The notes beneath the pieces are model-generated. The model had not been told where the DNA came from, made no database searches, and was given only the letters and a program-made list of their open reading frames with translations. A DNA stretch of 13,009 nt from a bacterium (GTDB lineage: Bacteria > Patescibacteriota > Patescibacteriia > CAIQCM01): NCBI GenBank assembly GCA_023246535.1, contig JAHFIF010000001.1:14688-27696 (forward strand), in the 5' to 3' direction. Below are positions 3,075-12,985 of this stretch, piece by piece; position 1 is the first letter of the stretch, and every line of letters starts with the position of its first letter. Position numbers and translations under genes: made by a program.

Positions 3075-3111
3075 TGGTTCTCCTTTTCTTTCCGTAACGT
3101 TGTTGGTATCT

Positions 3112-3753
3112 CTACTGGTTGTGATTGTAAGCTTCGATCAGGTACGTGTCGTCTCCTTCCCTGTAGTCGATGATGATGGCTTCGCTGCCGCGCGGCAGCT
3201 CCTCTCCGTCGGTCCGGCAATCGACCTGCTTCAGGTCGCGTTGCTTGTCGTAGACTTGGATCACGCCGGATGTGGCGCTGGCCGCGACGACCAGGGTTCC
3301 GGTGCAGCCGATGATCGCTCTCTTGGAGAGAGCGCTCGTTTCAAGCGTCGGAACGACGCGATGGAACAGCTTGGCGATCTTCCCGGTGAGGAAGGTCATC
3401 GCGACGAAGGAGGCGATCAGCGAGATCCATCCGTAGGCGGCCGGAAAGCGGAGAATTGGCGCGAGCAGCCGGTTAGCGACCGTGCCGGTCACGCCGAAAA
3501 TGAGGGCCGCGATCATAAGGAGGACGGTGATCGGGATTTTACCAACCCCGAAGAGCATGAAGGCGCGATTGAGCGCGCCCTGTTCATGTTCGTGGTTTCC
3601 GTCGGTATCATGGTGCACGTCGTGCTGAATGTCATGGCTCAGGTCATGTTCGGCCTCATGGCCGAACCCTAGGGCCAGCCCGAGCGCGAGCAGAATGCCG
3701 ATCATGAGCGGGATGTTGAAAATCAAATTCTGCCATGCAAATAGCGTCTCCAT
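3112..3753 (-). CDS. NfeD-like (YqiJ/YuaF family) membrane protein with a C-terminal OB-fold domain, 213 aa. Carries a His/Asp-rich loop.
   Basis: TM helices followed by a C-terminal beta-rich domain (…GCTGTLVVAASATSGVIQVYDKQRDLKQVDC…) typical of short NfeD. It sits immediately upstream of the flotillin gene on the same strand with a 37-bp gap. SD-like AAAGGACAGG precedes the ATG. Confidence 0.85.
   Translation of the reverse strand: METLFAWQNLIFNIPLMIGILLALGLALGFGHEAEHDLSHDIQHDVHHDTDGNHEHEQGALNRAFMLFGVGKIPITVLLMIAALIFGVTGTVANRLLAPILRFPAAYGWISLIASFVAMTFLTGKIAKLFHRVVPTLETSALSKRAIIGCTGTLVVAASATSGVIQVYDKQRDLKQVDCRTDGEELPRGSEAIIIDYREGDDTYLIEAYNHNQ
3583..3660 (-). repeat. In-frame 12-nt periodic tract encoding (H-D/E-x-x)n, HEAEHDLSHDIQHDVHHDTDGNHEHE, with 8 His in 26 residues.
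   Basis: Recurrent ..catg.. units are visible on the + strand at about 12-nt spacing. The translation shows His every 4th residue. Confidence 0.6.
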
Positions 3754-3840
3754 TTCCTGTCCTTTCGTTCGTTGTTGCGGATTTTCAAGGGCCGATTATC
3801 GGTCCGCTTTGGAATTTTTCCCAAAACTGGCGGATTTCGT

Positions 3841-3869
3841 TTTTTACCTCATGGATCGTTTTATGTCAA
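3841..3869 (-). promoter_or_regulatory. Candidate promoter of the NfeD-flotillin operon: -35 TTGACA (3864-3869), 17-bp spacer, weak -10 TAAAAA (3841-3846).
   Basis: On the - strand: TTGACAtaaaacgatccatgaggTAAAAA. The leader to the ATG at 3753 would be about 85 nt. Confidence 0.3.
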
Positions 3870-3896
3870 TAGAGAGAATAAACGCCTTTAAGGATT

Positions 3897-3929
3897 AAAA
3901 AACGCCCGTTCACAAAGCGTGAACGGGCG
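3897..3929 (-). terminator. Rho-independent terminator of the gene 3940-4995.
   Basis: 11-bp stem cgcccgttcac/gtgaacgggcg with loop aaagc at 3903-3929. On the - strand it is followed by TTTTTTAATCC (+ strand A6 at 3897-3902). It lies 10 nt past the stop (3940-3942). Confidence 0.7.
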
Positions 3930-3939
3930 AAACGAGGCG

Positions 3940-4995
3940 TTATTTTGTTGGGAAGAGCGGCAGATTGCCGAGAGCGATGACGTCGGGGCGCGTCCCGCCT
4001 TCGGTGTAGGCGGCCATGACGGCGCCTTCTTCGGCGTGCGCTAGCGCGAGAAGCTGGCGCACCGCGATCAGCGTGCCGCCGGTCGAGACGACATCGTCGA
4101 CGATCGCGACTTTGAGACCGCTGATGCGGTCGGCGTCATCGCGGCCGAGGAACAGGTGTTGGATCTTGTCGGTCGTGATGCTTCGGAAGCGGACCTTCAA
4201 AGCCGGCGCCGCCATGTAGGGCTTGAGCTCCTTTCTGGCGACGAAGGTCGGCAGGTTGGCGATCCGTCCCATCACGTGGAGGAGCGCAAGCGCCTTGCCG
4301 TCGGGCATGAGCAAGGCCTGCGTTCCTTTGGGAATCAACTTGACCAGCTCGGCGCCGATCGCTTCGGTCAATTCCCAGTCGCCCAGCAAGTTGAAGAGCG
4401 CGACGCGAACGCCGGGCGCCACTTCACGGATCGGCAGGTCGCGAAAGACGTTGCCAATCACAATGCGGTAGGTCTCGGTTTGGCCTGTAGGTTTTTCCGC
4501 CCACTTGGCCAAGGCCTTGATTACCGCCTCGGTGATGAAGACCGAACGCGATTTCCTTCCGCCGGTCAGATAGAGATGCGGGTCGTCATGGCGCGAACCG
4601 ACGTTCTCGGCGAGAACTTGTCCAGCCGTGACCTTGTCAAAACCGCGGCGGCGCGCTTCGTCGACGATGTGGGCCGGAAAGACCACGGCCTCGGACTCGG
4701 CGACCGATTCGCTGCCATCCGGGGCGATCACGACGACCACGGCCACGTCGACGGTATTGAACGGCGTGCGGCGCAGGCCGTTCTCGATCCCGATGGCAAA
4801 GGCGTTGGGAAACTTTCGATGCGCGGCCAGGGCGCGATTTCGTGCGCCGGTTTCGATCTCGTCTTCTTTGGGCTGCGGTGGCACGCCCGAATCGGATTCG
4901 GTCGTGTGATCGAGCGGTCCGTAGTGAAGAATGTCCAAGGCGGCCTGAACGCCGTTGGCCTTTAGAATGCTGGTCGACGAAAGTGCGAATTCCAT
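3940..4995 (-). CDS. Two-domain fusion protein (351 aa): an N-terminal YjjX-family (NTPase_I-T / DUF84) inosine/xanthosine triphosphatase domain, and a C-terminal type-I phosphoribosyltransferase domain (APRT-like).
   Basis: The N-terminal half carries …SGVPPQPKEDEIETGARNRALAA…FAIGIENGL…HLYLTGGRKSRSVFITEAVIKAL, matching the YjjX signature SGVPEQP…GARNR…AIEAGI…GKLTRASVYHQAVILAL. The C-terminal half carries the PRPP-binding motif KVAIVDDVVSTGGTL. Strong SD AAAAAGGAGAAcc precedes the ATG at 4995, with a textbook promoter upstream. Confidence 0.75.
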   Translation of the reverse strand: MEFALSSTSILKANGVQAALDILHYGPLDHTTESDSGVPPQPKEDEIETGARNRALAAHRKFPNAFAIGIENGLRRTPFNTVDVAVVVVIAPDGSESVAESEAVVFPAHIVDEARRRGFDKVTAGQVLAENVGSRHDDPHLYLTGGRKSRSVFITEAVIKALAKWAEKPTGQTETYRIVIGNVFRDLPIREVAPGVRVALFNLLGDWELTEAIGAELVKLIPKGTQALLMPDGKALALLHVMGRIANLPTFVARKELKPYMAAPALKVRFRSITTDKIQHLFLGRDDADRISGLKVAIVDDVVSTGGTLIAVRQLLALAHAEEGAVMAAYTEGGTRPDVIALGNLPLFPTK

Positions 4996-5044
4996 GGTTC
5001 TCCTTTTTCAAAGTTCGATGCCGATTTAAAGACAGGAACCGCTT

Positions 5045-5073
5045 ACCATACTTGTTTTATTGCCATTTGTCAA
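5045..5073 (-). promoter_or_regulatory. Sigma70 promoter for 3940-4995: -35 TTGACA (5068-5073), 17-bp spacer, -10 TATGGT (5045-5050).
   Basis: On the - strand: TTGACAaatggcaataaaacaagTATGGT, about 50 nt upstream of the ATG. Confidence 0.55.
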
Positions 5074-5112
5074 TGGTCGGGGTGCTCCGTCGCGCGAATA
5101 TGCTCAGGGAAT

Positions 5113-5138
5113 AAAAAAGGCCCGACTTTGGTCGGACC
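5113..5138 (-). terminator. Rho-independent terminator of the gene 5149-5625.
   Basis: Stem ggcccgac/gtcggacc (one mismatch) with loop tttg at 5119-5138, followed on the - strand by TTTTTT (+ strand A6 at 5113-5118). It lies 10 nt past the stop (5149-5151). Confidence 0.6.
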
Positions 5139-5148
5139 GAAGGCGACG

Positions 5149-5625
5149 CTATTGCATCGCATGTTGCGGAATGAGTTGTCTCACTTTCCAGGTCCAGGCG
5201 CGGGCCTTGCGCTTGCGTCCGCCGCGGCTGGCGCGCCGGAATTCGCGTTCGCCATACCCGCCGCGCCGGGCCAGGCGCTCGGCATCAATGATCCGGTCGC
5301 GGCTTTCGGCAAAGCGCTCTCTTTCCAGCGTGTCGAGATGCAGCCTGATGAAATTGGTGAGCGGCAACTTTTCGGGCTTGCCCGACTCACGCTTGATCTC
5401 AACTTCTATCTCTTGCGCCGTTTTCCAAACGGTCAGCGACAGCGCGTCATAGACGTCGTCCTCGGTAACGGGCGACGGAATGACGATGCCGAGCGCGATG
5501 AAGATAACCACGATCACGATGAACGTCCAAGCGGCGTAGTAGAGCACGGCGCCGAGCAGTCCGAGGCCGGCCAGCGCGATCACGGCCAGCAGCAGGAGCA
5601 GTGTTGCCAAGGTCTTTTTGTTCAT
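5149..5625 (-). CDS. Small membrane protein (158 aa): two N-terminal TM helices followed by a cytoplasmic, highly basic C-terminal region. Function unknown.
   Basis: Good SD GGAGGTG 6 nt upstream of the ATG at 5625. It has hydrophobic helices (LATLLLLLAVIALAGLGLLGAVLYYAAWTFIVIVVIFIALGIVI), its own promoter and its own terminator. Confidence 0.65.
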   Translation of the reverse strand: MNKKTLATLLLLLAVIALAGLGLLGAVLYYAAWTFIVIVVIFIALGIVIPSPVTEDDVYDALSLTVWKTAQEIEVEIKRESGKPEKLPLTNFIRLHLDTLERERFAESRDRIIDAERLARRGGYGEREFRRASRGGRKRKARAWTWKVRQLIPQHAMQ

Positions 5626-5645
5626 TAAGGCACCTCCGAAAAATG

Positions 5646-5674
5646 AATTTACAACAGTTCATGCGCCATGTCCA
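5646..5674 (-). promoter_or_regulatory. Candidate promoter for 5149-5625: -35 TGGACA (5669-5674), 17-bp spacer, -10 TAAATT (5646-5651).
   Basis: On the - strand: TGGACAtggcgcatgaactgttgTAAATT, about 20 nt before the SD. Confidence 0.4.
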
Positions 5675-5708
5675 CCGGATAATGCCGCGCCCCGCAATCA
5701 AAGCAATT

Positions 5709-5738
5709 AAAAAGAGCGATCATTTGATCGCTCTTTTC
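5709..5738 (-). terminator. Rho-independent terminator of the nitroreductase gene.
   Basis: Perfect inverted repeat agagcgatca-tt-tgatcgctct (5713-5734), flanked by A5 (5709-5712/13) and T-runs, so U-tracts are available on either strand. It lies 12 nt past the stop at 5747-5749. Confidence 0.65.
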
Positions 5739-5746
5739 GTTTCCTG

Positions 5747-6382
5747 TTATTTCATTTCGATAAAGAATTTTTCTTTCGGGAAGCGCACTTTTTTCAATTT
5801 GGCGTATTCGTCGTCGGCGGCGCGGAAGCCGACGGCGACGGCGACGGCGGTGGTCAGATTAAGTTTTTCTAAGCCCAAGACATCATCGAATCCTTTGCGA
5901 TCAAAGCCTTCCATCGGCGTGGCGTCGATCTCATTCATCGCGGCCGCGGTCAAAAGCGTGCCCAACGCGATGTAGGCCTGGCGCGCCGCCCAAGCGGTAT
6001 TTTGCTCCGGTGAATTGTTGGCGATCGACCCCAGGATCATTTTGTGATATTCGTTGAAAGTATCGTTGGGCTGGTTGCGAACGGCCGCCGTGAGACCGAT
6101 GAATTCGTCGACCGTCTTGATGCCCAGATCGGTTTTGGCGGCGAAGACCAAAAAGTGCGAAGCGTCGGTGATCGGCGATTGGCCGTAGCCCGCCGCGCGC
6201 AGCTTGGTGCGAAGGTCGGGCGCGTCAACGATGATGACGCGAAACGGCTGGAGGCCGAAGGAGGTGGGCGCCAAGCGCACCGCTTCCAACAGCGTCGCCA
6301 GTTGTTCACCGGTCAATTTTTTCGCCGGGTCGTATTTTTTCGTGGCATAGCGCCAATTAAGCGATTCAATCAGATTTTTCAT
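5747..6382 (-). CDS. Oxygen-insensitive NAD(P)H nitroreductase (NfsB/NfnB family), about 212 aa.
   Basis: MKNLIESLNWRYATKKYDPAKKLTGEQL… aligns with the NfsB N-terminus ([26 protein letters not shown]…). Family motifs are present throughout. The ORF is open up to 6463, but the extension (MARLTDFVYSINRAMMIYRFCEFNAKP) has no homology-like character. The SD is weak at every candidate start. Confidence 0.8.
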   Translation of the reverse strand: MKNLIESLNWRYATKKYDPAKKLTGEQLATLLEAVRLAPTSFGLQPFRVIIVDAPDLRTKLRAAGYGQSPITDASHFLVFAAKTDLGIKTVDEFIGLTAAVRNQPNDTFNEYHKMILGSIANNSPEQNTAWAARQAYIALGTLLTAAAMNEIDATPMEGFDRKGFDDVLGLEKLNLTTAVAVAVGFRAADDEYAKLKKVRFPKEKFFIEMK

Positions 6383-6472
6383 AGGTTTGGCATTAAATTC
6401 GCAAAAGCGATATATCATCATAGCCCTGTTTATCGAATATACAAAGTCCGTCAATCGCGCCAAAAGCCGTTT

Positions 6473-6500
6473 TTGATTTTATCGGCCGGCCGTGTAAGAT
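6473..6500 (+). promoter_or_regulatory. Candidate promoter for 6546-7034: -35 TTGATT (6473-6478), 16-bp spacer, -10 TAAGAT (6495-6500).
   Basis: TTGATTttatcggccggccgtgTAAGAT, followed by an approximately 45-nt leader with strong SD AAAAAGGAGAT 6 nt before the ATG. Confidence 0.4.
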
Positions 6501-6545
6501 ACCGCCGAAAGCAGCAAGCGCTTTCATGAGAAAAAGGAGATAGCC

Positions 6546-7034
6546 ATGAAGCCACGGATTTATATCGCCAGTCCGCTGGGTTTTTCCGAAGCCGGGCAGT
6601 ATTGGTACTACAACGTTCTGGTTCCATTGGTCGAACGGTGCGGGTTCGAAGTCGTTGATCCATGGAAACTGACCGCGCCGGCCATCATCAAGACGGCGAT
6701 GTTTTCGCCGGAAGGGCCGGAACAGCGGCGCGCTTGGGAGGCAGCCAACAAGATCATCGGCGAGAATAACGAACGCGGCATCCAGACCAGCCATCTGGTG
6801 CTCGGTCTGCTGGACGGCCCCGATGTCGACAGCGGCACGGCCAGCGAAATCGGGTTCGCCGCCGGCATCAACAAGCCGATCGAAGGATACCGCAACGATT
6901 TCCGTTTGGCCGGCGACAATATCGGCTCGCGGATCAATCTGCAGGTCGAACACTGGATCAGGCGGATGGGCGGGGTAATTTCGCCCGACCTCAAAGCGCT
7001 CGAAACGGTTCTGCAGGAACGAAAGTTCATCTAG
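6546..7034 (+). CDS. Nucleoside 2-deoxyribosyltransferase-family protein (NDT / DNPH1(Rcl)-like N-glycosidase fold), 162 aa.
   Basis: The N-terminal PRIYIASPLGFSE aligns with the NDT KTIYFGAGWF. …LLDGPDVDSGTASEIGFAAGINKPIEGYRNDFR matches the NDT catalytic-Glu region (…DVGLGMELGYA…). A strong SD is present. Confidence 0.7.
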   Translation: MKPRIYIASPLGFSEAGQYWYYNVLVPLVERCGFEVVDPWKLTAPAIIKTAMFSPEGPEQRRAWEAANKIIGENNERGIQTSHLVLGLLDGPDVDSGTASEIGFAAGINKPIEGYRNDFRLAGDNIGSRINLQVEHWIRRMGGVISPDLKALETVLQERKFI

Positions 7035-7094: not shown

Positions 7095-7124
7095 AACAAG
7101 GATAATATGCTAAGCTGATTGAAT

Positions 7125-8033
7125 ATGTGGCTGTTTTACGCGTTCTCCGGACCGTTGGCCTGGGCGGCGTCGATGCATATCGACAAGTTTTTGCTGGAAA
7201 AATATTTTAAGCATGGCAGCCTCGCCGTCTCCATGGTCTTTACGGCGATCATCGGTTTGCTGCTCCTGCCGTTCATTGTCATCTTTGTTCCCGGCGTGTT
7301 CAATTTTGCGCCGTTCGCCATCGGCGTGATGATCGCTTCCGGGCTGCTCTTCATGGGCGGCATGACTTTTTATCTTTACGCCCTGCAGACGGAAGAGGCA
7401 TCGATCGTCGGCTTGCTGTCGCCGGCCGGTCCGATTCTTGCTTTTGTTCTGGCTTTCTTCGTTCTGGGCGAGCGCCTGGCGATCGGCCAGCTGTTGGGCG
7501 GCGCGATGGTCGTCGCCGGCGTTTTCATCGCTTCGTTCCGTTTTGGCGGCGGAAAAATAAAATTCAGGAAACGCGCCACCATGATGATGACGGCGGCGAT
7601 CGTTTGTTTTGCCGCCAGCTCGCTCATTTTCAAATATTTCGCCGTTCCCGAGCTCTTCTGGCCCGCGACCTTTTGGACCTATGTCGGCGAGGCGCTGTTC
7701 GGGGCGGGGATCCTGTCTTTTTCTTCCGAGCGGCGGATCTTCATGAAGTTGATCAAGACCAACCCCAAGGTCATGCTGACGATGAACGCCGTTAACGAAT
7801 TGGTGAACCTCGGCGGCAGCCTGGCCGCCCGTTATGCGCTCGTTCTGGCGCCGCTCGCGCTGGTGCAAGCCGTGACTTCGACGACGCCGCTCATGGTGTT
7901 TATTTTCGGGATCGCGATCACCATATTCTTTCCCAGGTTCGGCCGCGAGAATATTTCAAAAACGATCCTGCTCCAAAAATCGCTCGCCGCCGCCCTGGTC
8001 GTGGTCGGCGCCATCCTGGCCGGCGGATCATAA
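7125..8033 (+). CDS. EamA/DMT-superfamily transporter (10-TM, duplicated EamA domains), about 302 aa.
   Basis: Uniformly hydrophobic two-repeat architecture with motifs such as …LAIGQLLGGAMVVAGVFI… and …ALVVVGAILAGGS. The ATG at 7125 is taken as the start. The ORF track opens at a TTG at 7119. There is no clear SD. Confidence 0.75.
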   Translation: MWLFYAFSGPLAWAASMHIDKFLLEKYFKHGSLAVSMVFTAIIGLLLLPFIVIFVPGVFNFAPFAIGVMIASGLLFMGGMTFYLYALQTEEASIVGLLSPAGPILAFVLAFFVLGERLAIGQLLGGAMVVAGVFIASFRFGGGKIKFRKRATMMMTAAIVCFAASSLIFKYFAVPELFWPATFWTYVGEALFGAGILSFSSERRIFMKLIKTNPKVMLTMNAVNELVNLGGSLAARYALVLAPLALVQAVTSTTPLMVFIFGIAITIFFPRFGRENISKTILLQKSLAAALVVVGAILAGGS

Positions 8034-8039
8034 AACCCC

Positions 8040-8083
8040 GCTTTTCACGAGGTGCCACCTCGTGAAAAGCGCTTCATTTATTT
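8040..8083 (+). terminator. Rho-independent terminator after the EamA gene.
   Basis: Perfect 15-nt inverted repeat gcttttcacgaggtg-c-cacctcgtgaaaagc (8040-8070), followed by T-rich cttcatttatttat. It lies 7 nt past the TAA at 8031-8033. Confidence 0.65.
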
Positions 8084-8113
8084 ATCCTTACCTGATAAAG
8101 TGCTTCAAACCTT

Positions 8114-9205
8114 ATGCGCATTCTCATCATCCACGATCGTTTCCAATTCCGCGGCGGGGCCGAACGGATGGTTTTGGACATGTGCAAAATGCTCGGCGCC
8201 GACTTGGTGACGGAATTTTGGACGGATGAGACGTTCTCGCAAAGCGATGTGCCGCACAAACTGACGGTTCTTGATAAGGGCGAACCCAAGGCGATGGTTT
8301 TTCGGTATTTCCGCTCGCAATGGAATTTTTGGTGGAAGACGCGGAAACTGATCCGCGAATACGACACGCTGATCTTCTCCGGCAATAATTGCTTGGCCGC
8401 CGCTTTGCGCCCGTTGCATGGAAAAAAGACGATCCTTTATTGCCACAGCCCGGTGCGCTATGTTTACGACCTGCTGTCGTTCCGGCGCGGCATGGAGCCG
8501 TCGTTCTTAAAAAGATTTTTTTATTACGATATCGGCAAATACCTCATCCGCGGCCTCTATCGGCTGGGGCTTGGCCGCATGAAGGTCGTCATCGCCAATT
8601 CCGAAAACGTCCGCGGGCGGCTGCAGTATTATTGCCACACCGAATCGCAAGTAATTTATCCGCCCATTCAAACGGACAAATACCGCTTCATCGAACAAGG
8701 AGATTACTACCTGTCGTGGGCGCGCCTCGACGAACTTAAGCGCGTCGAGCGCATTGTTTGGGCTTTCCGGGAAATGCCGGACAAGAAATTGATCGTCGCC
8801 TCGGGCGGCGAGCGCGAGGCCGCCATCCGCAAGCTGGCCGAAGGCGCGCCGAACATCTCCGTGCTCGGCTGGGTCGATAATGAAAAGCTTTACGATTTGG
8901 TCGGCCGTTGCATCGCCGGCATCTATCTTCCGATGAACGAGGACTTGGGCATGACGCCGCTCGAAGGCATGGCCGCCGGCAAGCCGTGCATCGGGGTTGA
9001 TGAAGGCGGCCTTAAAGAAACGATCATCCCCGGGGAGACGGGGACGCTCATCAGCGCGGCCGCGCCGATCAATGAACTGGTTAACGCCGTGCGCGTGCTC
9101 ACCCCGGCGCGGGCCGCCGCCATGCGCGCCGCCTGCGAGGCGCAAGCCAAGAATTTTTCCCTCGAAGTTTTTGAAAAGAAGATCCGCGCGGCGATCGGTC
9201 AATAA
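8114..9205 (+). CDS. GT4-family (GT-B fold) retaining glycosyltransferase, 363 aa.
   Basis: The N-terminal MRILIIHDRFQFRGGAER matches the GT4 MKIL…GG.E signature. The C-terminal E-x7-E motif is present (EDLGMTPLEGMAAGKPCIGVDEGGLKETI). There is no SD. The gene may be leaderless or weakly initiated. Confidence 0.85.
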   Translation: MRILIIHDRFQFRGGAERMVLDMCKMLGADLVTEFWTDETFSQSDVPHKLTVLDKGEPKAMVFRYFRSQWNFWWKTRKLIREYDTLIFSGNNCLAAALRPLHGKKTILYCHSPVRYVYDLLSFRRGMEPSFLKRFFYYDIGKYLIRGLYRLGLGRMKVVIANSENVRGRLQYYCHTESQVIYPPIQTDKYRFIEQGDYYLSWARLDELKRVERIVWAFREMPDKKLIVASGGEREAAIRKLAEGAPNISVLGWVDNEKLYDLVGRCIAGIYLPMNEDLGMTPLEGMAAGKPCIGVDEGGLKETIIPGETGTLISAAAPINELVNAVRVLTPARAAAMRAACEAQAKNFSLEVFEKKIRAAIGQ

Positions 9206-10473
9206 TTGAATTGCTCGAAAATGATATTTTCGGGCCGAACGTGTTTTGCCAGCAATTGTTTTTTCAAAGCGTTCATCATGCCTTCGGGGCCGCAGATGAA
9301 TATCTTCTTGTTCTTGAGGCCGCCGGCGCGTTTTTCCACGATGTCGGCGGTCAAATGCCCGCGCCGGTCGCTTTCGTGCAAATGCAGTTTGAAGGCGTTG
9401 GGCACGGCGGCGAGCATCGTCAATTCATTGCTGTAAACGCAGTCATCGGTGCTGTGCGTTGAGCAGAAAAAATCGTTTTTGCCGTTCACGGCTCGGCCGC
9501 GAAAGGCGGACATGAAAGGGGTGACGCCGATCCCGCCGGCGATGAAAATGCTTTCCATATTGGGATCAAGTTCCGAAAAGAATTTTCCGTACGGACCGAA
9601 GACGGTGACCTCGTCGCCGACCGCAAGTTTGGCAAGGTCCTTGGTGAAATCGCCGACGTTTTTTGCCGCAAAACGCAGTTCACTGTCGTTGGGCGCCGAG
9701 CTGAAGGAGAAAGGGTGCGCTTCGGCGGAAACGCTCTTTGAATGAAACGAGAAATAGGCGAATTGTCCCGGCTGGAAAGCAAGGCGCGCCTTTTTGGGCG
9801 ACAAAGTTATTTCGACGATGCCCGCGCCTTTGTCGTTGACCGCTTTGACCGCGTACGCGGCTTGCGGCGCCATGAAGCGGTAGAACAATTCGCGATAGAT
9901 CCACGCGATCGCGCCTAGCGCGACCGTGACGATGATGAAGATGCGCAGCGGCTGGTAGCGGGAAATGTCGCTCGTGATAAAAAGCAAATGATAGATGCCA
10001 AAGGCGAAGGGGATGGCGAAGAATTTTTGGATCAGCGTGAAATACTTGTAGGGGATCTTAAAATAGATGATCGTGACGACGATCCCGGCCATCGTTAGCA
10101 AACCGATCTCGCCGGCGATGAAAATGACATTGCCGGTCAGGAGCGAATAGATCGGGGCGCCGCCGAGGCCGTAGCCGATCGCGACCGCCAGGCCGTGGAT
10201 CGCCAGCAGGCCACCCGACCACGAGCCGGTCTGGTGATGGAGGCGGTAAGCGCGATCCAATCCGCCGCAGGCTTCTTCGATCAAATACGTTCGCGATGCC
10301 AGGATGAAGGAGACGGCGAAAAGGAGCGTCCCGAGGAGCGCGGCCAGCTGGCCGAGCGAGATGAAGGGCGAGGCCAAGACCGCGGCCAGCGTCGGTTTGG
10401 ATAAAAGCCAAAGCAGGATGGTCAGCGTCGCGGACAAGAAAATAATGTAGATCGCCGGTCGCTTGGGTGACAT
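9199..10473 (-). CDS. NOX/FRE-family flavocytochrome (424 aa). It has an N-terminal 6-TM ferric-reductase-like heme domain and a C-terminal FNR-type FAD-binding (HPFSFSS) and NAD(P)H-binding (GGIGVTPF … CGPEGMM) dehydrogenase domain. Bacterial NADPH-oxidase-like, SpNOX-like architecture.
   Basis: Motifs: HPF[ST] FAD motif, GGxGxTP and CGP NAD(P)H motifs. TM-helix His residues H79/H80 and H93 are 13-14 apart, as on NOX TM3, and H162 lies on a later helix. The ATG at 10473 lies 1 nt after the stop of the upstream b5-like ORF (TAA-t-ATG), implying translational coupling. The 3' end overlaps the GT4 stop by 7 nt. Confidence 0.8.
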   Translation of the reverse strand: MSPKRPAIYIIFLSATLTILLWLLSKPTLAAVLASPFISLGQLAALLGTLLFAVSFILASRTYLIEEACGGLDRAYRLHHQTGSWSGGLLAIHGLAVAIGYGLGGAPIYSLLTGNVIFIAGEIGLLTMAGIVVTIIYFKIPYKYFTLIQKFFAIPFAFGIYHLLFITSDISRYQPLRIFIIVTVALGAIAWIYRELFYRFMAPQAAYAVKAVNDKGAGIVEITLSPKKARLAFQPGQFAYFSFHSKSVSAEAHPFSFSSAPNDSELRFAAKNVGDFTKDLAKLAVGDEVTVFGPYGKFFSELDPNMESIFIAGGIGVTPFMSAFRGRAVNGKNDFFCSTHSTDDCVYSNELTMLAAVPNAFKLHLHESDRRGHLTADIVEKRAGGLKNKKIFICGPEGMMNALKKQLLAKHVRPENIIFEQFNY

Positions 10474-10474
10474 A

Positions 10475-10768
10475 TTATTTAACGAGGTAGCGTTGGATCA
10501 TCTGCAAGTTGTCGCCATGCTGTCCGTGGAAGGTCGCGCTCATATCCGTGCCGCATTGAAAGATGTCGCCGCCGGTGTGGGTGTTGCGCAGCGATTCAAC
10601 GTCGTATTTTTGTCCGTCGATCGTGATGATGCAAGTTGACGCCGCCGGAGACGGGCTCATATTTGGCGCCGTTGGTGGCGGCTGGGTTTTTATATAGAGC
10701 AGCGTGCCGGCGATCGCGACGCCGACGATGAGGGCGTAAAAAATAATTTTGGGGAGCAGTTTATTCAT
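10475..10768 (-). CDS. Small N-terminally membrane-anchored protein (97 aa) with a Pro-rich linker and a short cytochrome-b5-like heme-binding domain (HTGG … GQHGD).
   Basis: STCIITIDGQKYDVESLRNTHTGGDIFQCGTDMSATFHGQHGDN aligns with the b5 core [47 protein letters not shown]. Both axial-His positions are conserved. It is in an operon with, and coupled to, the NOX-like gene. There is no SD. The domain is shorter than canonical b5. Confidence 0.5.
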   Translation of the reverse strand: MNKLLPKIIFYALIVGVAIAGTLLYIKTQPPPTAPNMSPSPAASTCIITIDGQKYDVESLRNTHTGGDIFQCGTDMSATFHGQHGDNLQMIQRYLVK

Positions 10769-10791
10769 ATATATATGAGGGTTTTGCCACC

Positions 10792-10820
10792 TTGATGATA
10801 CCAGATATTAATGATAATGT
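10792..10820 (+). promoter_or_regulatory. Candidate promoter for the nifS/iscS operon in the AT-rich divergent region: -35 TTGATG (10792-10797), 17-bp spacer, -10 TAATGT (10815-10820). The leader would be short (about 17 nt) with no SD. A leaderless start from AATTAT/TATTAT (10833-10841) is an alternative.
   Basis: TTGATGataccagatattaatgaTAATGT. No GGAGG-like element precedes the ATG at 10845. Confidence 0.3.
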
Positions 10821-10844
10821 GATAGGCTCTTCAATTATTATAGT

Positions 10845-12059
10845 ATGCCCGAGTCTCCGGAAATATATCTCGACCACGCCGCCACCGCGCCGCTCGACCC
10901 CAGGGTCAAGGCGGCAATGTTGCCGTACTTGGAAGGGGATTTCGGCAATCCGTCCTCGCTGCACATTACCGGTCGCCGCGCCAAGCAGGCGCTCGACGAT
11001 GCGCGCGACGACATCGCCAAAATCCTGCATTGCCGCGCCAGCGAACTCATCTTTACTTCCGGCGGAACAGAGGCCGACAATTTGGCAATCCTTGGCATCT
11101 ACCGGGCATACAAAGAAAAAGGCAACCGAATTGTTACAACGACCATCGAGCATCACGCGGTTCTCAACCCCGTCGAACATTTGGTTAAAAAAGAAGGCGC
11201 CGAGGCGCTCTTCGTCAAAGTCGACCGCGACGGTTTGGTTGATCCGGCGAATATCATTGCCGCGCTTACTGACAAGACGCTCTTGGTTTCGGTCATGTAC
11301 GCGAATAACGAGATCGGCACGATTGAACCGATCGCCGCCATCGGCCAAGCGATCGCCGCTTGGAAAAAAGCCAACAATCGCAAGCCGTCCGAGGCTCCGT
11401 ACTTCCATACCGACGCCTGCCAGGCGGCCGGCGCGCTGTCGCTCGACGTGAACGAGCTGGGGTGCGACCTGCTGACCCTGAACGGCTCGAAGATCTACGG
11501 TCCGAAAGGCGTCGGCGTGCTGTACGTTCGCACCGGCCTGCGCCCCGAACCGCTCATCTACGGCGGCGGTCAGGAGTGGGGGCTGCGTTCCGGCACGGAA
11601 AACATCGCCGCGATCGTCGGTTTGGCCAAAGCCCTGGCATTGAGCCAAGCGGAACGGGAAACGGAAAACGCGCGACTCGTCGCCTTGCGCGACAAGCTCA
11701 TCGCCGGCTTGCTACAGATCCCAAAAACGCGCCTGAACGGCCATCCGACCAAACGCTTGCCCAATAACGCCAACGTTTCCATCATGGACATTGAAGGCGA
11801 GGCCATGCTGCTTTATCTTGATGAGGCCGGCTTCCGCGCCTCCACCGGTTCGGCTTGCACTTCGGCTTCGCTCGACCCGTCGCACGTCATCGCCGCCATC
11901 GGTTTGCCGTACGAAGCGGCGCACGGTTCGATGCGCTTCACGCTCGGCCACGCGACGACCGAAGCCGACGTGGAAAAACTTTTGAAAACCCTGCCGCCGA
12001 TCGTGGAAAAGCTGCGTCAGCTTTCCCCGGTGCGCCTGAACATGAAACATTACGCCTAA
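10845..12059 (+). CDS. iscS: Cysteine desulfurase, class-V aminotransferase group I (IscS/NifS type), 404 aa.
   Basis: Near-full-length similarity to IscS. PEIYLDHAATAPLDPRV matches the N-terminus. The PLP-Lys region reads LNGSKIYGPKGVGVLYVR. The active-site Cys loop reads STGSACTSASLDPSHV. The C-terminus reads …LSP. It is followed by NifU-like and ferredoxin genes. Confidence 0.9.
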   Translation: MPESPEIYLDHAATAPLDPRVKAAMLPYLEGDFGNPSSLHITGRRAKQALDDARDDIAKILHCRASELIFTSGGTEADNLAILGIYRAYKEKGNRIVTTTIEHHAVLNPVEHLVKKEGAEALFVKVDRDGLVDPANIIAALTDKTLLVSVMYANNEIGTIEPIAAIGQAIAAWKKANNRKPSEAPYFHTDACQAAGALSLDVNELGCDLLTLNGSKIYGPKGVGVLYVRTGLRPEPLIYGGGQEWGLRSGTENIAAIVGLAKALALSQAERETENARLVALRDKLIAGLLQIPKTRLNGHPTKRLPNNANVSIMDIEGEAMLLYLDEAGFRASTGSACTSASLDPSHVIAAIGLPYEAAHGSMRFTLGHATTEADVEKLLKTLPPIVEKLRQLSPVRLNMKHYA

Positions 12060-12064
12060 ACCCT

Positions 12065-12706
12065 ATGTCCACGCCCGACGTTGTTTCGCACGATAAAAAA
12101 GACAAATGGCTCTATTCCGACATTGTTAAGGATCATTTTTTCAATCCCCGCAATTTCATGGTCGATGACGACGGCTACAAGGCCGACGGCATGGGCATGG
12201 TCGGCTCGCCGGCCTGCGGCGACATGATGACCGTTTGGATCAAGGTCGATCCGGCCACGGAACGGGTCGTCGACATGCGGTGGCGCACCTTCGGCTGCGG
12301 TTCGGCGATCGCCTCGACCTCGATGCACTCGGTCATGGTCGTGGAGGACGGCGGCCGGACCATCGACGAAGCGTTGGCCATTCGTCCGCAACACATCATG
12401 GAGCGCCTGGGCGGACTGCCGAACCGGAAGATCCACTGCTCGGTCCTTTCCGACAAAGCCCTGCGTTCCGCCGTCAATGATTATTTCCGGAAGACCGAAC
12501 AGATCAGCCGGATTACGACCGAAGGCGTGCGCGTGATCGACAAAGTCTTGAAGATAACCGATCATGACATTGAAGAAGCGGTCTTGGAAGGCGCCGATTC
12601 GCTCGAGAAAGTGCAGGCGCGCACCAAGGTCGGCACCGGCGACCCGTCCTGTTTGCCGGAAGTCGAACAACTGATAAGATTTTATAAAGAGAAATATTTT
12701 GGCTAA
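12065..12706 (+). CDS. nifU: NifU-type Fe-S cluster scaffold. It has an N-terminal IscU/NifU domain (three conserved Cys) and a C-terminal degenerate BFD-like domain, 213 aa.
   Basis: The scaffold motifs SPACGD, FGCGSAIAS and HCS are present. LPNRK replaces the IscU LPPVK. The ATG at 12065 lies 5 nt after the iscS stop. The ORF track's upstream extension to 11855 overlaps iscS and is rejected. The C-terminal …VGTGDPSC… resembles BFD GTGCGSC with Cys residues lost. Confidence 0.85.
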   Translation: MSTPDVVSHDKKDKWLYSDIVKDHFFNPRNFMVDDDGYKADGMGMVGSPACGDMMTVWIKVDPATERVVDMRWRTFGCGSAIASTSMHSVMVVEDGGRTIDEALAIRPQHIMERLGGLPNRKIHCSVLSDKALRSAVNDYFRKTEQISRITTEGVRVIDKVLKITDHDIEEAVLEGADSLEKVQARTKVGTGDPSCLPEVEQLIRFYKEKYFG

Positions 12707-12709
12707 CCT

Positions 12710-12985
12710 ATGAAATTAAAAATCTCCGTCGATCCCGATCTTTGCTTCGGCGCCGCCTCCTGCGTCACTGTTTCGCCGTCGCATTTTCGCCTGAATGACA
12801 AGAATAAAGCCGAGGTGCTGGAGGAGGGGGGAGACATCATGCCGGGAAATCCGATTTACGAGCGCATTATTGAAGCCGACGAAGCCAAGCGCGACGAATT
12901 GATCCTCTCCGCCCAATCCTGCCCCGTCTCCGCCATCTCCATTTGGGACATGGAAACCGGCGAACGCCTTTACCCGAAAGATTAA
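12710..12985 (+). CDS. Small single-cluster ferredoxin of the Pyrococcus/Thermotoga type (CxxAxxC … CP; 3 Cys ligands), 91 aa.
   Basis: KLKISVDPDLCFGAASCVTV…SAQSCPVSAISI parallels P. furiosus Fd [20 protein letters not shown]…CPVSAITI. The ATG lies 3 nt after the nifU stop, in the same operon. Confidence 0.65.
   Translation: MKLKISVDPDLCFGAASCVTVSPSHFRLNDKNKAEVLEEGGDIMPGNPIYERIIEADEAKRDELILSAQSCPVSAISIWDMETGERLYPKD

What the first reader, a model, noticed from the sequence alone, without database searches (positions are those of the whole stretch)
9199..12985. NOX-like/b5-like reductase operon is divergently paired with nifS-nifU-ferredoxin across a 76-bp AT-rich control region
The only strongly AT-rich stretch in the window (10769-10844) separates the start of the b5/NOX operon from the start of the Fe-S assembly operon (iscS/nifS, nifU-type scaffold, ferredoxin). 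Neither first gene has an SD, which suggests leaderless or atypical initiation from back-to-back promoters. A ferric-reductase-type enzyme set head-to-head with Fe-S cluster biogenesis genes suggests co-regulation. One possibility is that the reductase supplies Fe(II) for cluster assembly. Another is iron- or oxidative-stress-responsive control of both operons from a shared operator.
Basis: inference. Interest (0 to 1): 0.5.

Follow-up and report, generated by a model that had tools for sequence, protein, structure and literature searches.

The report
Fe-S genes facing a haem reductase operon
In an uncultured ultra-small (CPR/Patescibacteria) bacterium, a minimal iron-sulfur assembly operon and a membrane NAD(P)H-to-haem electron-export operon start 76 bp apart and appear to share overlapping promoters. 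This layout is inherited within one lineage only and shows no recognisable iron or stress operator.

Summary
All five genes are real. On the minus strand lie a b5-like haem protein (10475-10768) and a NOX/ferric-reductase-like flavocytochrome (9199-10473). On the plus strand lie nifS (10845-12059), a nifU-like scaffold (12065-12706) and a 3-Cys ferredoxin (12710-12985). The 76-bp spacer has 30% GC against 58% for the window, but three other stretches are equally AT-rich.

The head-to-head block is conserved in every relative with a NOX-like protein of 50-84% identity (nine sequence-distinct loci plus one seen as gene calls only), while the outer flanks differ. It is absent from 162 more distant NOX-like loci, where NifS lies nearby once and NifU and ferredoxin never. 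There the recurrent neighbour is a membrane-anchored b5-like gene.

The spacer positions invariant across orthologs spell a sigma-70 promoter for nifS, TTGA-N16-TGnTAnnnT. It overlaps a b5-strand promoter, ATCACA-17-TGgTATCAT. No Fur, IscR, PerR, NsrR or similar consensus scores above shuffled sequence.

Lack of a Shine-Dalgarno site is uninformative, since 11 of 16 contig genes lack one, including internal operon genes. The conserved promoter predicts short leaders, not leaderless mRNAs.

Also noticed: the NOX-like protein has Gln in place of one of the four canonical haem-ligand histidines.

A functional iron link remains inference.

The parts
9199..10473 (-). NOX/ferric-reductase-like flavocytochrome (424 aa): a 6-TM haem domain fused to an FAD/NAD(P)H dehydrogenase domain. 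Gln149 (codon 10027-10029) sits where SpNOX has the inner-haem ligand H129. H79, H93 and H162 are retained.
   Evidence: Pfam hits PF01794, PF08022 and PF00175. Best solved relative is SpNOX 8qq7/8qt6, E=5e-30. Ligand mapping; codons checked.
10475..10768 (-). Membrane-anchored b5-like haem protein (97 aa): a short basic N-terminus, one TM helix, a Pro/Ser/Thr linker and a roughly 50-aa b5-fold domain. Putative axial ligands are H64 and H84. It lies 1 nt upstream of the NOX-like start codon.
   Evidence: Pfam Cyt-b5 20.5 bits, below the cutoff. Ortholog profile against PDB: flavocytochrome b2 haem domain at E=3.2e-6 with both His aligned. Conservation. Charge-based topology.
10769..10844 (.). 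76-bp divergent intergenic region, GC 0.30.
10792..10820 (+). Predicted nifS promoter: -35 TTGATG (10792-10797), 17-bp spacer, extended -10 TG (10812-10813) and -10 TAATGT (10815-10820). Predicted TSS is near 10827, giving a leader of about 17-18 nt without SD.
   Evidence: The ten columns invariant in nine orthologs are TTGA, ATG, TA and T at these positions. The pattern occurs once in the window against 0.02 expected. It sits in the nifS-b5 spacer on the nifS-sense strand in all 13 ortholog loci. TSS is inferred.
10795..10823 (-). Predicted b5/NOX-like promoter: -35 ATCACA (10823-10818), 17-bp spacer, TG (10803-10802) and -10 TATCAT (10800-10795). Predicted TSS is near 10788. Each of its hexamers overlaps the opposite hexamer of the nifS promoter.
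   Evidence: Found by the consensus scan at 9/12 plus TG. The identical ATCACA-17 promoter is present in L083, L174 and L173, and weaker variants occur in the deeper orthologs.
10845..12059 (+). NifS-like (MisS-type) class-V PLP cysteine desulfurase, 404 aa.
   Evidence: PF00266 at 5.5e-77. TIGR03402 NifS scores 486 bits, below its 530.75 cutoff.
12065..12706 (+). NifU-like scaffold, 213 aa. The IscU-type domain has Cys51, Cys78 and Cys125. The BFD-like domain keeps only one Cys (C196). There is no C-terminal Nfu domain.
   Evidence: PF01592 and PF04324. TIGR02000 matched over positions 2-187 of 290. Cys inventory.
12710..12985 (+). Single-cluster ferredoxin, 91 aa, with three conserved Cys (C12, C18, C71-Pro).
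   Evidence: PF13459 and PF13370. Cys positions conserved in seven orthologs.

Best explanation
Two operons of an uncultured Patescibacteria (CPR) bacterium start 76 bp apart. They are most likely transcribed from two overlapping, oppositely oriented sigma-70-type extended -10 promoters within 10792-10823. The -35 of each promoter lies on the -10 of the other, and the predicted start sites are about 39 bp apart. RNA polymerase bound for one direction should therefore occlude the other, and anything binding this core would affect both operons.

The minus-strand operon is a transmembrane electron-export module. Electrons are inferred to pass from cytoplasmic NAD(P)H to FAD, then to membrane haem(s) of the NOX-like protein, then to an extracytoplasmic membrane-anchored b5-type haem protein, and finally to an unknown outside acceptor. 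Fe(III) is the most attractive candidate given the neighbours.

The plus-strand operon is a minimal NifS/NifU-like (MIS-type) Fe-S assembly system with its own ferredoxin.

The head-to-head arrangement arose once and is inherited within one clade. It is not an intrinsic property of either module.

Shown here: gene identities, conservation of the block, and the constrained promoter-like core. Inferred: start sites, promoter interference, b5 topology, direction of electron flow, and any iron link.
For: -
- The five-gene block is intact in nine sequence-distinct ortholog loci plus one locus without DNA, while the outer flanks differ. The ferredoxin side carries PGI/SIS or an ABC transporter. The NOX side carries GT4 or a small hypothetical gene.
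- The invariant spacer columns are TTGA, then 15 nt, then ATGnTAnnnT, which are the key sigma-70 positions.
- The core is 84-93% identical where four-fold sites of nifS and the NOX-like gene are 53-62% identical.
- The consensus scan independently finds the opposite-strand promoter ATCACA-17-TGgTATCAT.
- Spacer bases outside the promoter positions are not conserved in the deeper orthologs. That is the pattern expected of a promoter and not of an operator.
- A b5-like ORF is the commonest neighbour of NOX-like genes. It appears in 33 of 162 loci by HMM and 41 by clustering, on the same strand in 32 of 33.
- All 49 b5-like proteins examined have a short K/R-rich N-terminus and one TM helix. Acidic residues occur almost only after the helix, which indicates N-in, C-out topology.
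- The SpNOX electron path NADPH -> FAD -> inner haem -> outer haem is taken from PMC11564096.
Against: - The promoters are consensus-level predictions with no transcript data. The nifS promoter scores only 7/12 on the hexamers and relies on the TG extension.
- The pattern counted was derived from the same alignment, so those counts are partly circular.
- In the four closest relatives the whole 43-bp core is conserved, including spacer bases, so an operator specific to that sub-clade cannot be excluded.
- The b5-strand promoter is weak or different in L087, L089 and L170.
- The NOX-like protein lacks one canonical inner-haem ligand (Q149), so the assumed two-haem relay may not hold.
- General synteny around the block is also fairly conserved. 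Conservation of the junction is therefore only modest evidence for selection on the pairing.
Confidence: 0.55

Rival explanations
1. First reader's model. A shared operator in the spacer, bound by an iron- or oxidative-stress-responsive repressor (Fur, PerR, IscR/Rrf2), co-regulates both operons. The reductase supplies Fe(II) for cluster assembly.
For: - The spacer has three direct TGATA copies, and one half-site (TGATAAT) resembles a Fur half-box (sequence).
- The whole core, spacer included, is 84-93% identical in close relatives.
- The pairing is conserved within the clade.
- From my own knowledge, Helicobacter pylori nifS-nifU is Fur-regulated, so there is a precedent.
Against: - No dyad symmetry is present apart from trivial AT palindromes.
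- The best matches to Fur, PerR, Zur, IscR type 1 and 2, NsrR, RirA, DtxR, SufR, Rex, OxyR and CymR consensus sequences are no better than shuffles, p 0.13-1.0. Those consensus sequences were recalled from memory.
- The deep orthologs conserve only the promoter positions.
- No second copy of the core exists in the window.
- No iron-uptake or regulator gene recurs next to NOX-like genes in 162 loci.
Confidence: 0.15
2. Both first genes are translated from leaderless mRNAs made by back-to-back promoters placed immediately upstream of each ATG.
For: - In the window an AATTAT hexamer (10833-10838) ends 6 nt before the nifS ATG, with ATGATA 16 bp upstream (8/12).
- In L087 a b5-strand promoter ends 5 nt before the ATG.
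- Neither gene has an SD.
Against: - The AATTAT element is not conserved. L083, L085, L173 and L174 carry extra sequence between the conserved core and the nifS ATG, leaving the conserved -10 about 47-107 nt upstream of it.
- The hexamers next to the b5 ATG in the window sit at -1 to -8, too close for a start at the ATG.
- Lack of SD is common (11 of 16 genes) and also applies to the internal genes of both operons.
Confidence: 0.12
3. The adjacency is only inherited synteny in one family-level lineage. The two operons are expressed and regulated independently and have no metabolic connection.
For: - The pairing is absent from 162 distant NOX-like loci.
- Neighbouring genes (PGI/SIS, GT4, EamA, nitroreductase) are also syntenic in many of the same loci.
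- Each module occurs on its own elsewhere.
Against: - All four junctions inside the block are intact in every locus in which both flanking genes were called, while both outer junctions were broken in 3-4 of about 10 loci.
- With start codons only 50-152 bp apart and overlapping promoter elements, fully independent transcription is physically unlikely.
Confidence: 0.3
4. The NOX-like/b5 module reduces O2, either for superoxide or H2O2 production or for O2 scavenging and NAD(P)+ regeneration in a fermentative cell. Its link to nifS-nifU is protection of an oxygen-sensitive Fe-S assembly system, not iron supply.
For: - The closest solved relative is the O2-reducing SpNOX.
- SpNOX ferric reduction is indirect, via superoxide (PMC5676040).
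Against: - The dedicated extracytoplasmic b5-type partner suggests protein-mediated transfer to another acceptor.
- One canonical haem ligand is missing.
- No oxygen-defence genes are found in the block.
Confidence: 0.2

Closest known systems
Streptococcus pneumoniae NOX (SpNOX; PDB 8qq7, 8qt6) and the prokaryotic NOX/FRD-FNR fusion family (Hajjar et al. 2017, PMC5676040)
   Same: Same single-chain architecture: a 6-TM ferric-reductase haem domain fused to an FAD + NAD(P)H dehydrogenase domain. The alignment runs end to end (residues 50-423, E=5e-30). H79, H93 and H162 align with SpNOX H69, H83 and H142. The NADPH motif GIGVTP is present.
   Different: - The inner-haem ligand H129 is Gln149 here.
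- The FAD motif is HPFSF, not H[PSA]F[TS][LIMV].
- The gene is translationally coupled to a separate membrane-anchored b5-like gene. No b5 partner gene came up in the two SpNOX papers consulted (no mention of 'operon', and all 'cytochrome b5' word matches shown were 'cytochrome b558').
- Sequence identity is low.
MsrQ (YedZ)-MsrP and eukaryotic FRE/Dcytb-type transmembrane reductases
   Same: The working principle is the same. A di-haem membrane protein carries cytoplasmic reducing power to an extracytoplasmic redox partner or metal.
   Different: Here the flavin dehydrogenase is fused to the haem domain. The outside partner is a small b5-fold haem protein, not a molybdoenzyme or free Fe(III). 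There is no sequence-level membership.
Cytochrome b5 / flavocytochrome b2 haem domain (PF00173)
   Same: The b5 fold is detected by the ortholog profile (E=3e-6). The HxGG and second His ligands align.
   Different: The domain is shorter (about 50 aa). It is anchored by an N-terminal signal-anchor helix, not a C-terminal tail, and is probably extracytoplasmic. The single sequence scores below the Pfam gathering cutoff.
NIF / MIS minimal Fe-S assembly (NifS-NifU of non-diazotrophs; MisS-MisU in the classification of Garcia et al. as summarised in PMC13066941)
   Same: A cysteine desulfurase and a scaffold sit in one operon, with no chaperones, no carrier protein and no nitrogenase context.
   Different: The scaffold has only two domains. 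Its BFD-like domain keeps 1 of 4 cluster cysteines, and the C-terminal Nfu domain is absent. A 3-Cys ferredoxin gene follows in the operon.
Overlapping divergent (bidirectional) bacterial promoters
   Same: Two sigma-70-type promoters lie on opposite strands and share the same DNA, so the two directions should interfere with each other.
   Different: Here the -35 of each promoter overlaps the -10 of the other, with start sites about 39 bp apart. This differs from the shared symmetric -10 described for bidirectional promoters (that description is from my own knowledge). It is unverified by transcript mapping.

Membership tests
NOX family (criteria of Hajjar et al. 2017, PMC5676040) | Ferric-reductase transmembrane domain with about 6 TM helices | tested here: met
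   PF01794 scores 31.1 bits against a cutoff of 28. The TM region aligns to SpNOX.
NOX family (criteria of Hajjar et al. 2017, PMC5676040) | Four haem-ligand histidines: His-X12/14-His in TM3 and again in TM5 | tested here: not met
   TM3 has H79-X13-H93. TM5 reads Q149-X12-H162. Gln is found in all 24 clade proteins and all 13 clade loci; 23 of 23 more distant proteins and 138 of 159 aligned distant loci have His.
NOX family (criteria of Hajjar et al. 2017, PMC5676040) | FAD motif H[PSA]F[TS][LIMV] | tested here: not met
   The sequence is H253-P-F-S-F. The fifth residue, Phe, is outside the allowed set. PF08022 is still matched at 9e-11.
NOX family (criteria of Hajjar et al. 2017, PMC5676040) | [quoted passage not shown] | tested here: met
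   G314-I-G-V-T-P.
NOX family (criteria of Hajjar et al. 2017, PMC5676040) | NAD(P)H-dependent superoxide production | not testable with these tools
   Needs biochemistry.
Cytochrome b5 (PF00173) | Score at or above the Pfam gathering cutoff | tested here: not met
   20.5 bits against 23.7 for the window protein. The ortholog profile reaches E=3e-6 against b2 and b5 chains in the PDB.
Cytochrome b5 (PF00173) | Two axial His ligands (HPGG-type and a second His) | tested here: met
   H64 (THTGG) aligns with b2 HPGG, and H84 aligns with b2 PLH. Both are present in at least 9 of 10 orthologs.
NifS (TIGR03402) / IscS (TIGR02006) equivalogs | Score above the curated equivalog cutoff | tested here: not met
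   NifS model 486 against 530.75; IscS model 381 against 643. The protein is a NifS/IscS-like group I desulfurase and not an equivalog of either.
NifU proper (TIGR02000) | Three domains: IscU-like domain, central 4-Cys [2Fe-2S] domain, and C-terminal Nfu domain | tested here: not met
   The IscU-like domain has 3 Cys. The central domain has 1 Cys (C196). The model is matched only over positions 2-187 of 290, at 149 bits against a cutoff of 273.
Fur / PerR / Zur / IscR / NsrR / RirA / DtxR / SufR / Rex / OxyR / CymR operators | A site in the spacer matching the consensus better than chance | tested here: not met
   In 1000 shuffles each, the fraction reaching the observed score was 0.13-1.0. 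The consensus strings were taken from my own knowledge.
Leaderless mRNA | Transcription start at the A of the start codon | tested here: inconclusive
   The conserved promoter predicts a leader of about 17-18 nt. A non-conserved AATTAT hexamer 6 nt upstream of the nifS ATG would give a leaderless start. No transcript data are available.
Conserved divergent gene pair (functionally coupled divergon) | Pairing retained across related genomes beyond background synteny | tested here: inconclusive
   Retained in all ten clade loci examined (b5 not called in the one locus without DNA), with both outer flanks rearranged in some. Absent from 162 distant loci.

The most novel reading that the evidence does not exclude
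The membrane-anchored b5-like protein together with the NOX-like flavocytochrome may be a previously undescribed, widespread transmembrane electron-export system of ultra-small CPR bacteria and DPANN archaea, which largely lack respiratory chains. It would let them dump NAD(P)H electrons on extracellular acceptors such as Fe(III). In the window's lineage it would be wired through a shared promoter core to the only Fe-S assembly operon, so that iron reduction for uptake and cluster synthesis are expressed in a coordinated or mutually exclusive way. The HHQH variant (Gln in place of an inner-haem His) would mark a mechanistically distinct sub-family.
Probability: 0.2. Interest if true: 0.65.

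Novelty: new variant of a known kind. Interest (0 to 1): 0.38.

Why it matters
CPR bacteria are abundant, uncultured and metabolically minimal. How they obtain iron, build Fe-S clusters and re-oxidise NAD(P)H is poorly understood.

A conserved two-gene module would be a concrete, testable candidate for extracellular electron transfer or iron reduction in these organisms. It combines a NOX-like flavocytochrome with an outward-facing b5-type haem protein and recurs in many CPR and DPANN lineages.

The window's lineage adds a compact promoter architecture that physically couples this module to Fe-S biogenesis. The Gln-for-His haem-ligand variant is a natural experiment for the NOX field.

As a regulatory finding, however, this is an ordinary divergent operon pair whose conserved sequence is explained by promoters.

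Tried and rejected
- GTDB genome scan with a NOX-like alignment. It returned only relatives of 40% identity or less, so it gave no orthologs. I used it as the distant control set.
- Metagenome scan.
- Known operator consensus scans: nothing scored above shuffles.
- Inverted and direct repeat search of the spacer: only AT palindromes, plus a 14-bp palindrome over the b5 start codon that is not conserved in orthologs.
- Rfam on the window and four ortholog loci and a tRNA scan of the window: nothing found.
- Second copies of the core in the window as a regulon test: none.
- The idea that Q149 co-occurs specifically with nifS adjacency, implying a repurposed reductase feeding the Fe-S ferredoxin. 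Rejected, because 18 distant loci in Falkowbacteria, Saccharibacteria, Actinomycetota and Thermoleophilia also have Gln without nifS nearby.
- The idea that the b5-like domain is cytoplasmic, as a b5 / b5-reductase pair. Disfavoured by the signal-anchor charge pattern in 49 proteins.
- Cluster naming look-up for taxonomy: no names. The nearest named NifS homologs are Uhrbacteria or 'Patescibacteria group' at 61-63%.
- Literature searches. No paper holds both 'Patescibacteria' and 'ferric reductase'. The other searches surfaced nothing relevant: the twelve top-ranked CPR/DPANN papers never mention 'ferric reductase'.

Full report
OBSERVATION

The ORF map and profile searches confirm five genes.

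On the minus strand:
- A 97-aa protein at 10475-10768.
- One nucleotide downstream, a 424-aa protein at 9199-10473 with Ferric_reduct, FAD_binding_8 and NAD_binding_1 domains.

On the plus strand:
- A class-V aminotransferase closest to the NifS model, at 10845-12059. It scores 486 bits, below the 530.75 equivalog cutoff.
- A 213-aa NifU_N + BFD-like protein at 12065-12706.
- A 91-aa single-cluster ferredoxin at 12710-12985.

The spacer is 10769-10844 (76 bp), with GC 0.303 against 0.579 for the window. It is not the only AT-rich stretch. Equally low are 5696-5771, 12650-12725 and 6364-6439. Neither first gene has a Shine-Dalgarno sequence. However, only 5 of 16 genes on the source contig have one, and the internal genes of both operons (nifU, ferredoxin, NOX-like) lack it too. 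Absence of SD therefore says nothing about leaderless initiation.

SOURCE

The exact proteins occur on metagenomic contigs (ENA ERZ27279563, Logan SRR14366760). Named homologs of the NOX-like protein are from Dojkabacteria, WWE3, Kuenenbacteria, Roizmanbacteria, Paceibacterota and Saccharimonadia. The nearest named NifS homologs are Uhrbacteria or 'Patescibacteria group' at 61-63% identity. The window therefore comes from an unnamed CPR/Patescibacteria lineage.

IS THE PAIRING CONSERVED?

Yes within a clade, and no beyond it.

I fetched loci for relatives with NOX-like identities of 81, 80, 77, 64, 59, 58, 54, 53 and 50%. All carry ferredoxin<-nifU<-nifS facing the b5-like and NOX-like genes head to head. 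The b5 gene was not called on the one contig for which no DNA could be retrieved.

The outer flanks differ between loci. On the ferredoxin side there is PGI/SIS, or extra small ORFs, or an ABC transporter. On the NOX side there is a convergent GT4 glycosyltransferase or a 130-150-aa hypothetical gene. The five-gene block is thus the most stable unit. General synteny in this lineage is also fairly high, so this is only modest evidence for selection on the junction.

I then examined 162 more distant NOX-like loci (41% identity or less), drawn from GTDB genomes, JGI metagenomes and two look-ups. NifS lies within the fetched flank once, 4 kb away, and NifU and the ferredoxin never do. Unsupervised clustering of all neighbours shows that the recurrent partner of NOX-like genes is a membrane-anchored b5-like protein, found in 41 loci by clustering and 33 by HMM. 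Next come MacB-type ABC transporters and two-component systems. No iron-uptake, Fur or Fe-S genes recur.

THE SPACER

Orthologous spacers range from 50 to 152 bp. Aligning the shared core gives ten invariant columns: TTGA (10792-10795), ATG (10811-10813), TA (10815-10816) and T (10820).

On the nifS strand this reads TTGAnn, a 17-bp spacer, then TGnTAnnnT. These are the most informative positions of a sigma-70 -35 element and an extended -10 element. The pattern occurs once in the 13-kb window against 0.02 expected. It sits in the nifS-b5 spacer on the nifS-sense strand in all 13 clade loci. Because the pattern was derived from these same sequences, the counts are partly circular. The independent point is that the invariant positions coincide with the promoter consensus.

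The consensus scanner separately reports a promoter on the opposite strand: ATCACA-17-TATCAT, preceded by TG, at 10823-10795. The same promoter is present in L083, L174 and L173. The two predicted promoters use the same 32 bp, with each -35 lying on the other's -10. Inferred start sites are about 10827 (+) and 10788 (-).

Between the window and its three closest relatives the core is 84-93% identical. Four-fold synonymous sites of nifS and the NOX-like gene in the same comparisons are 53-62% identical, so the core is under constraint. In the deeper orthologs only the promoter positions persist, which is the signature of a promoter and not of an operator.

Further checks found no operator. Thirteen regulator consensus sequences, recalled from my own knowledge, scored no better than shuffled spacers. 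There is no meaningful dyad, no second copy of the core in the window and no Rfam family.

LEADERS

The conserved nifS promoter predicts a leader of about 17-18 nt in the window and about 7-11 nt in L087, L089 and L170. The leader is longer in L083, L085, L173 and L174, which carry unrelated inserts between the core and the ATG; the conserved -10 there lies about 47-107 nt upstream of the ATG. Two of the inserts form long hairpins.

A window-specific AATTAT hexamer 6 nt upstream of the nifS ATG could give a leaderless start. It is not conserved.

WHAT THE REDUCTASE OPERON IS

The best solved relative of the 424-aa protein is Streptococcus pneumoniae NOX, at E=5e-30 and aligned over residues 50-423. 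In SpNOX, H69 and H129 bind the inner haem, and H83 and H142 bind the outer haem (PMC11564096).

Here H79, H93 and H162 align with H69, H83 and H142. The H129 position, however, is Gln149. This holds in all 24 clade proteins and all 13 clade loci. The same Gln occurs in 18 of about 159 distant loci from Falkowbacteria, Saccharibacteria, Actinomycetota and Thermoleophilia. It is therefore a recurrent sub-family trait that is unrelated to nifS adjacency.

The protein consequently fails the four-histidine criterion used to define bacterial NOX (PMC5676040). It also deviates in the FAD motif (HPFSF).

The 97-aa partner scores below the Pfam cutoff when searched alone. A profile of ten orthologs, however, hits the flavocytochrome b2 and cytochrome b5 haem domains (E=3e-6), with H64 and H84 on the two axial ligands.

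All 49 b5-like proteins found next to NOX-like genes share the same N-terminal pattern. They begin with a short Lys/Arg-rich segment and a single hydrophobic helix, and acidic residues occur almost only after the helix. By the positive-inside rule the haem domain faces outward.

The simplest reading, which is inference, is a relay: NAD(P)H, then FAD, then membrane haem(s), then the external b5-type protein, then an unknown acceptor.

THE Fe-S OPERON

This is a minimal NifS/NifU-like system with no nitrogenase context, the kind classified as MIS by Garcia et al. (as summarised in PMC13066941).

The scaffold keeps the three IscU cysteines. Its BFD-like domain has only one of the four cluster cysteines, and the Nfu domain is absent. 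Both features are conserved in seven orthologs. The ferredoxin has three conserved cysteines (C-x5-C ... CP).

VERDICT

The pairing is a stable feature of one CPR lineage, and the spacer contains a constrained core. That core is best explained as two overlapping divergent promoters. No iron or stress operator is detectable, and strict leaderless initiation is not favoured.

The pairing is not general to either module, so a metabolic link between the reductase and Fe-S assembly, such as Fe(II) supply, remains a hypothesis. [quoted passage not shown]

The more interesting by-products are three:
- the widespread module of a NOX-like flavocytochrome and an outward-facing b5-like protein in CPR and DPANN;
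- the HHQH haem-ligand variant;
- the cysteine-depleted NifU-like scaffold.

I found no description of the module in CPR in the searchable library.

Noticed in passing
window 10027-10029 (codon 149 of the NOX-like gene); also L003, L014, L023, L038, L039, L043, L049, L062, L063 and others: The TM5 histidine that ligates the inner haem in SpNOX (H129) is Gln in all 24 clade proteins and all 13 clade loci, and in 18 of about 159 distant loci (CPR and Actinomycetota/Thermoleophilia). This gives an 'HHQH' sub-family, typically with F..xxQ[RK] in place of W..xxH[KQ]. The inner haem may be five-coordinate or absent.
   Followed up: partly
L004, L007, L010-L014, L020, L021, L047, L060, L171, L172 and others (33-41 of 162 loci): A membrane-anchored b5-like ORF is by far the commonest neighbour of NOX-like genes. 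It lies on the same strand, immediately upstream or downstream, and is sometimes present in two copies. The pattern includes DPANN archaea (Pacearchaeota, Woesearchaeota). I found no paper describing this module.
   Followed up: partly
window 12065-12706 (NifU-like); orthologs in L083, L085, L087, L089, L170, L174, L175: The BFD-like 'central' domain keeps only one Cys (C196) of the four that bind the permanent [2Fe-2S] cluster in NifU, yet its sequence is almost invariant (ITDHDIEEAVLEGAD.LEKVQAR.K.G.GD.SC.PEVEQL.RFYKEKYF). The C-terminal Nfu domain is absent.
   Followed up: partly
window 12710-12985: The ferredoxin has exactly three conserved cysteines (C12-x5-C18 ... C71-Pro). This suggests a [3Fe-4S] cluster, or a [4Fe-4S] cluster with a non-Cys fourth ligand.
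   Followed up: no
L083:6554-6650, L085:6510-6598, L173:733-800, L174:4531-4574: Unrelated inserts lie between the conserved promoter core and the nifS start codon. In L083 and L085 they fold into long hairpins (-28 and -24 kcal/mol, z about -2). In L173 the insert is a tandem array of GTTATC(A/G)G-like units. They may be small mobile palindromic elements or leader structures.
   Followed up: partly
window 1275-7034 versus 7119-12985 (L001 gene list): Clear AGGAG/GGAGG Shine-Dalgarno sites occur at only 5 of 16 genes, and all five lie in the left part of the window. None of the nine genes from EamA to the ferredoxin has one, nor do the nitroreductase gene at 5747-6382 and the two called genes beyond the window's right end.
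   Followed up: no
window 10765-10778: A perfect 14-bp palindrome, TCATATATATATGA, is centred just upstream of the b5-like start codon. It is not conserved in orthologs.
   Followed up: yes
window 9199-9205: The NOX-like gene and the convergent GT4 glycosyltransferase gene (8114-9205) overlap by 7 nt at their 3' ends. No terminator-like site lies between them.
   Followed up: no
window 6383-6545: A second divergent, AT-rich spacer (GC about 0.32) lies between the nitroreductase and nucleoside deoxyribosyltransferase genes. AT-rich divergent spacers are therefore typical of this genome.
   Followed up: no
L012, L040, L154, L172 and others: MacB-type ABC transporters (21 loci) and OmpR-type response regulator / histidine kinase pairs (10-12 loci) recur within 3 kb of distant NOX-like genes.
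   Followed up: no
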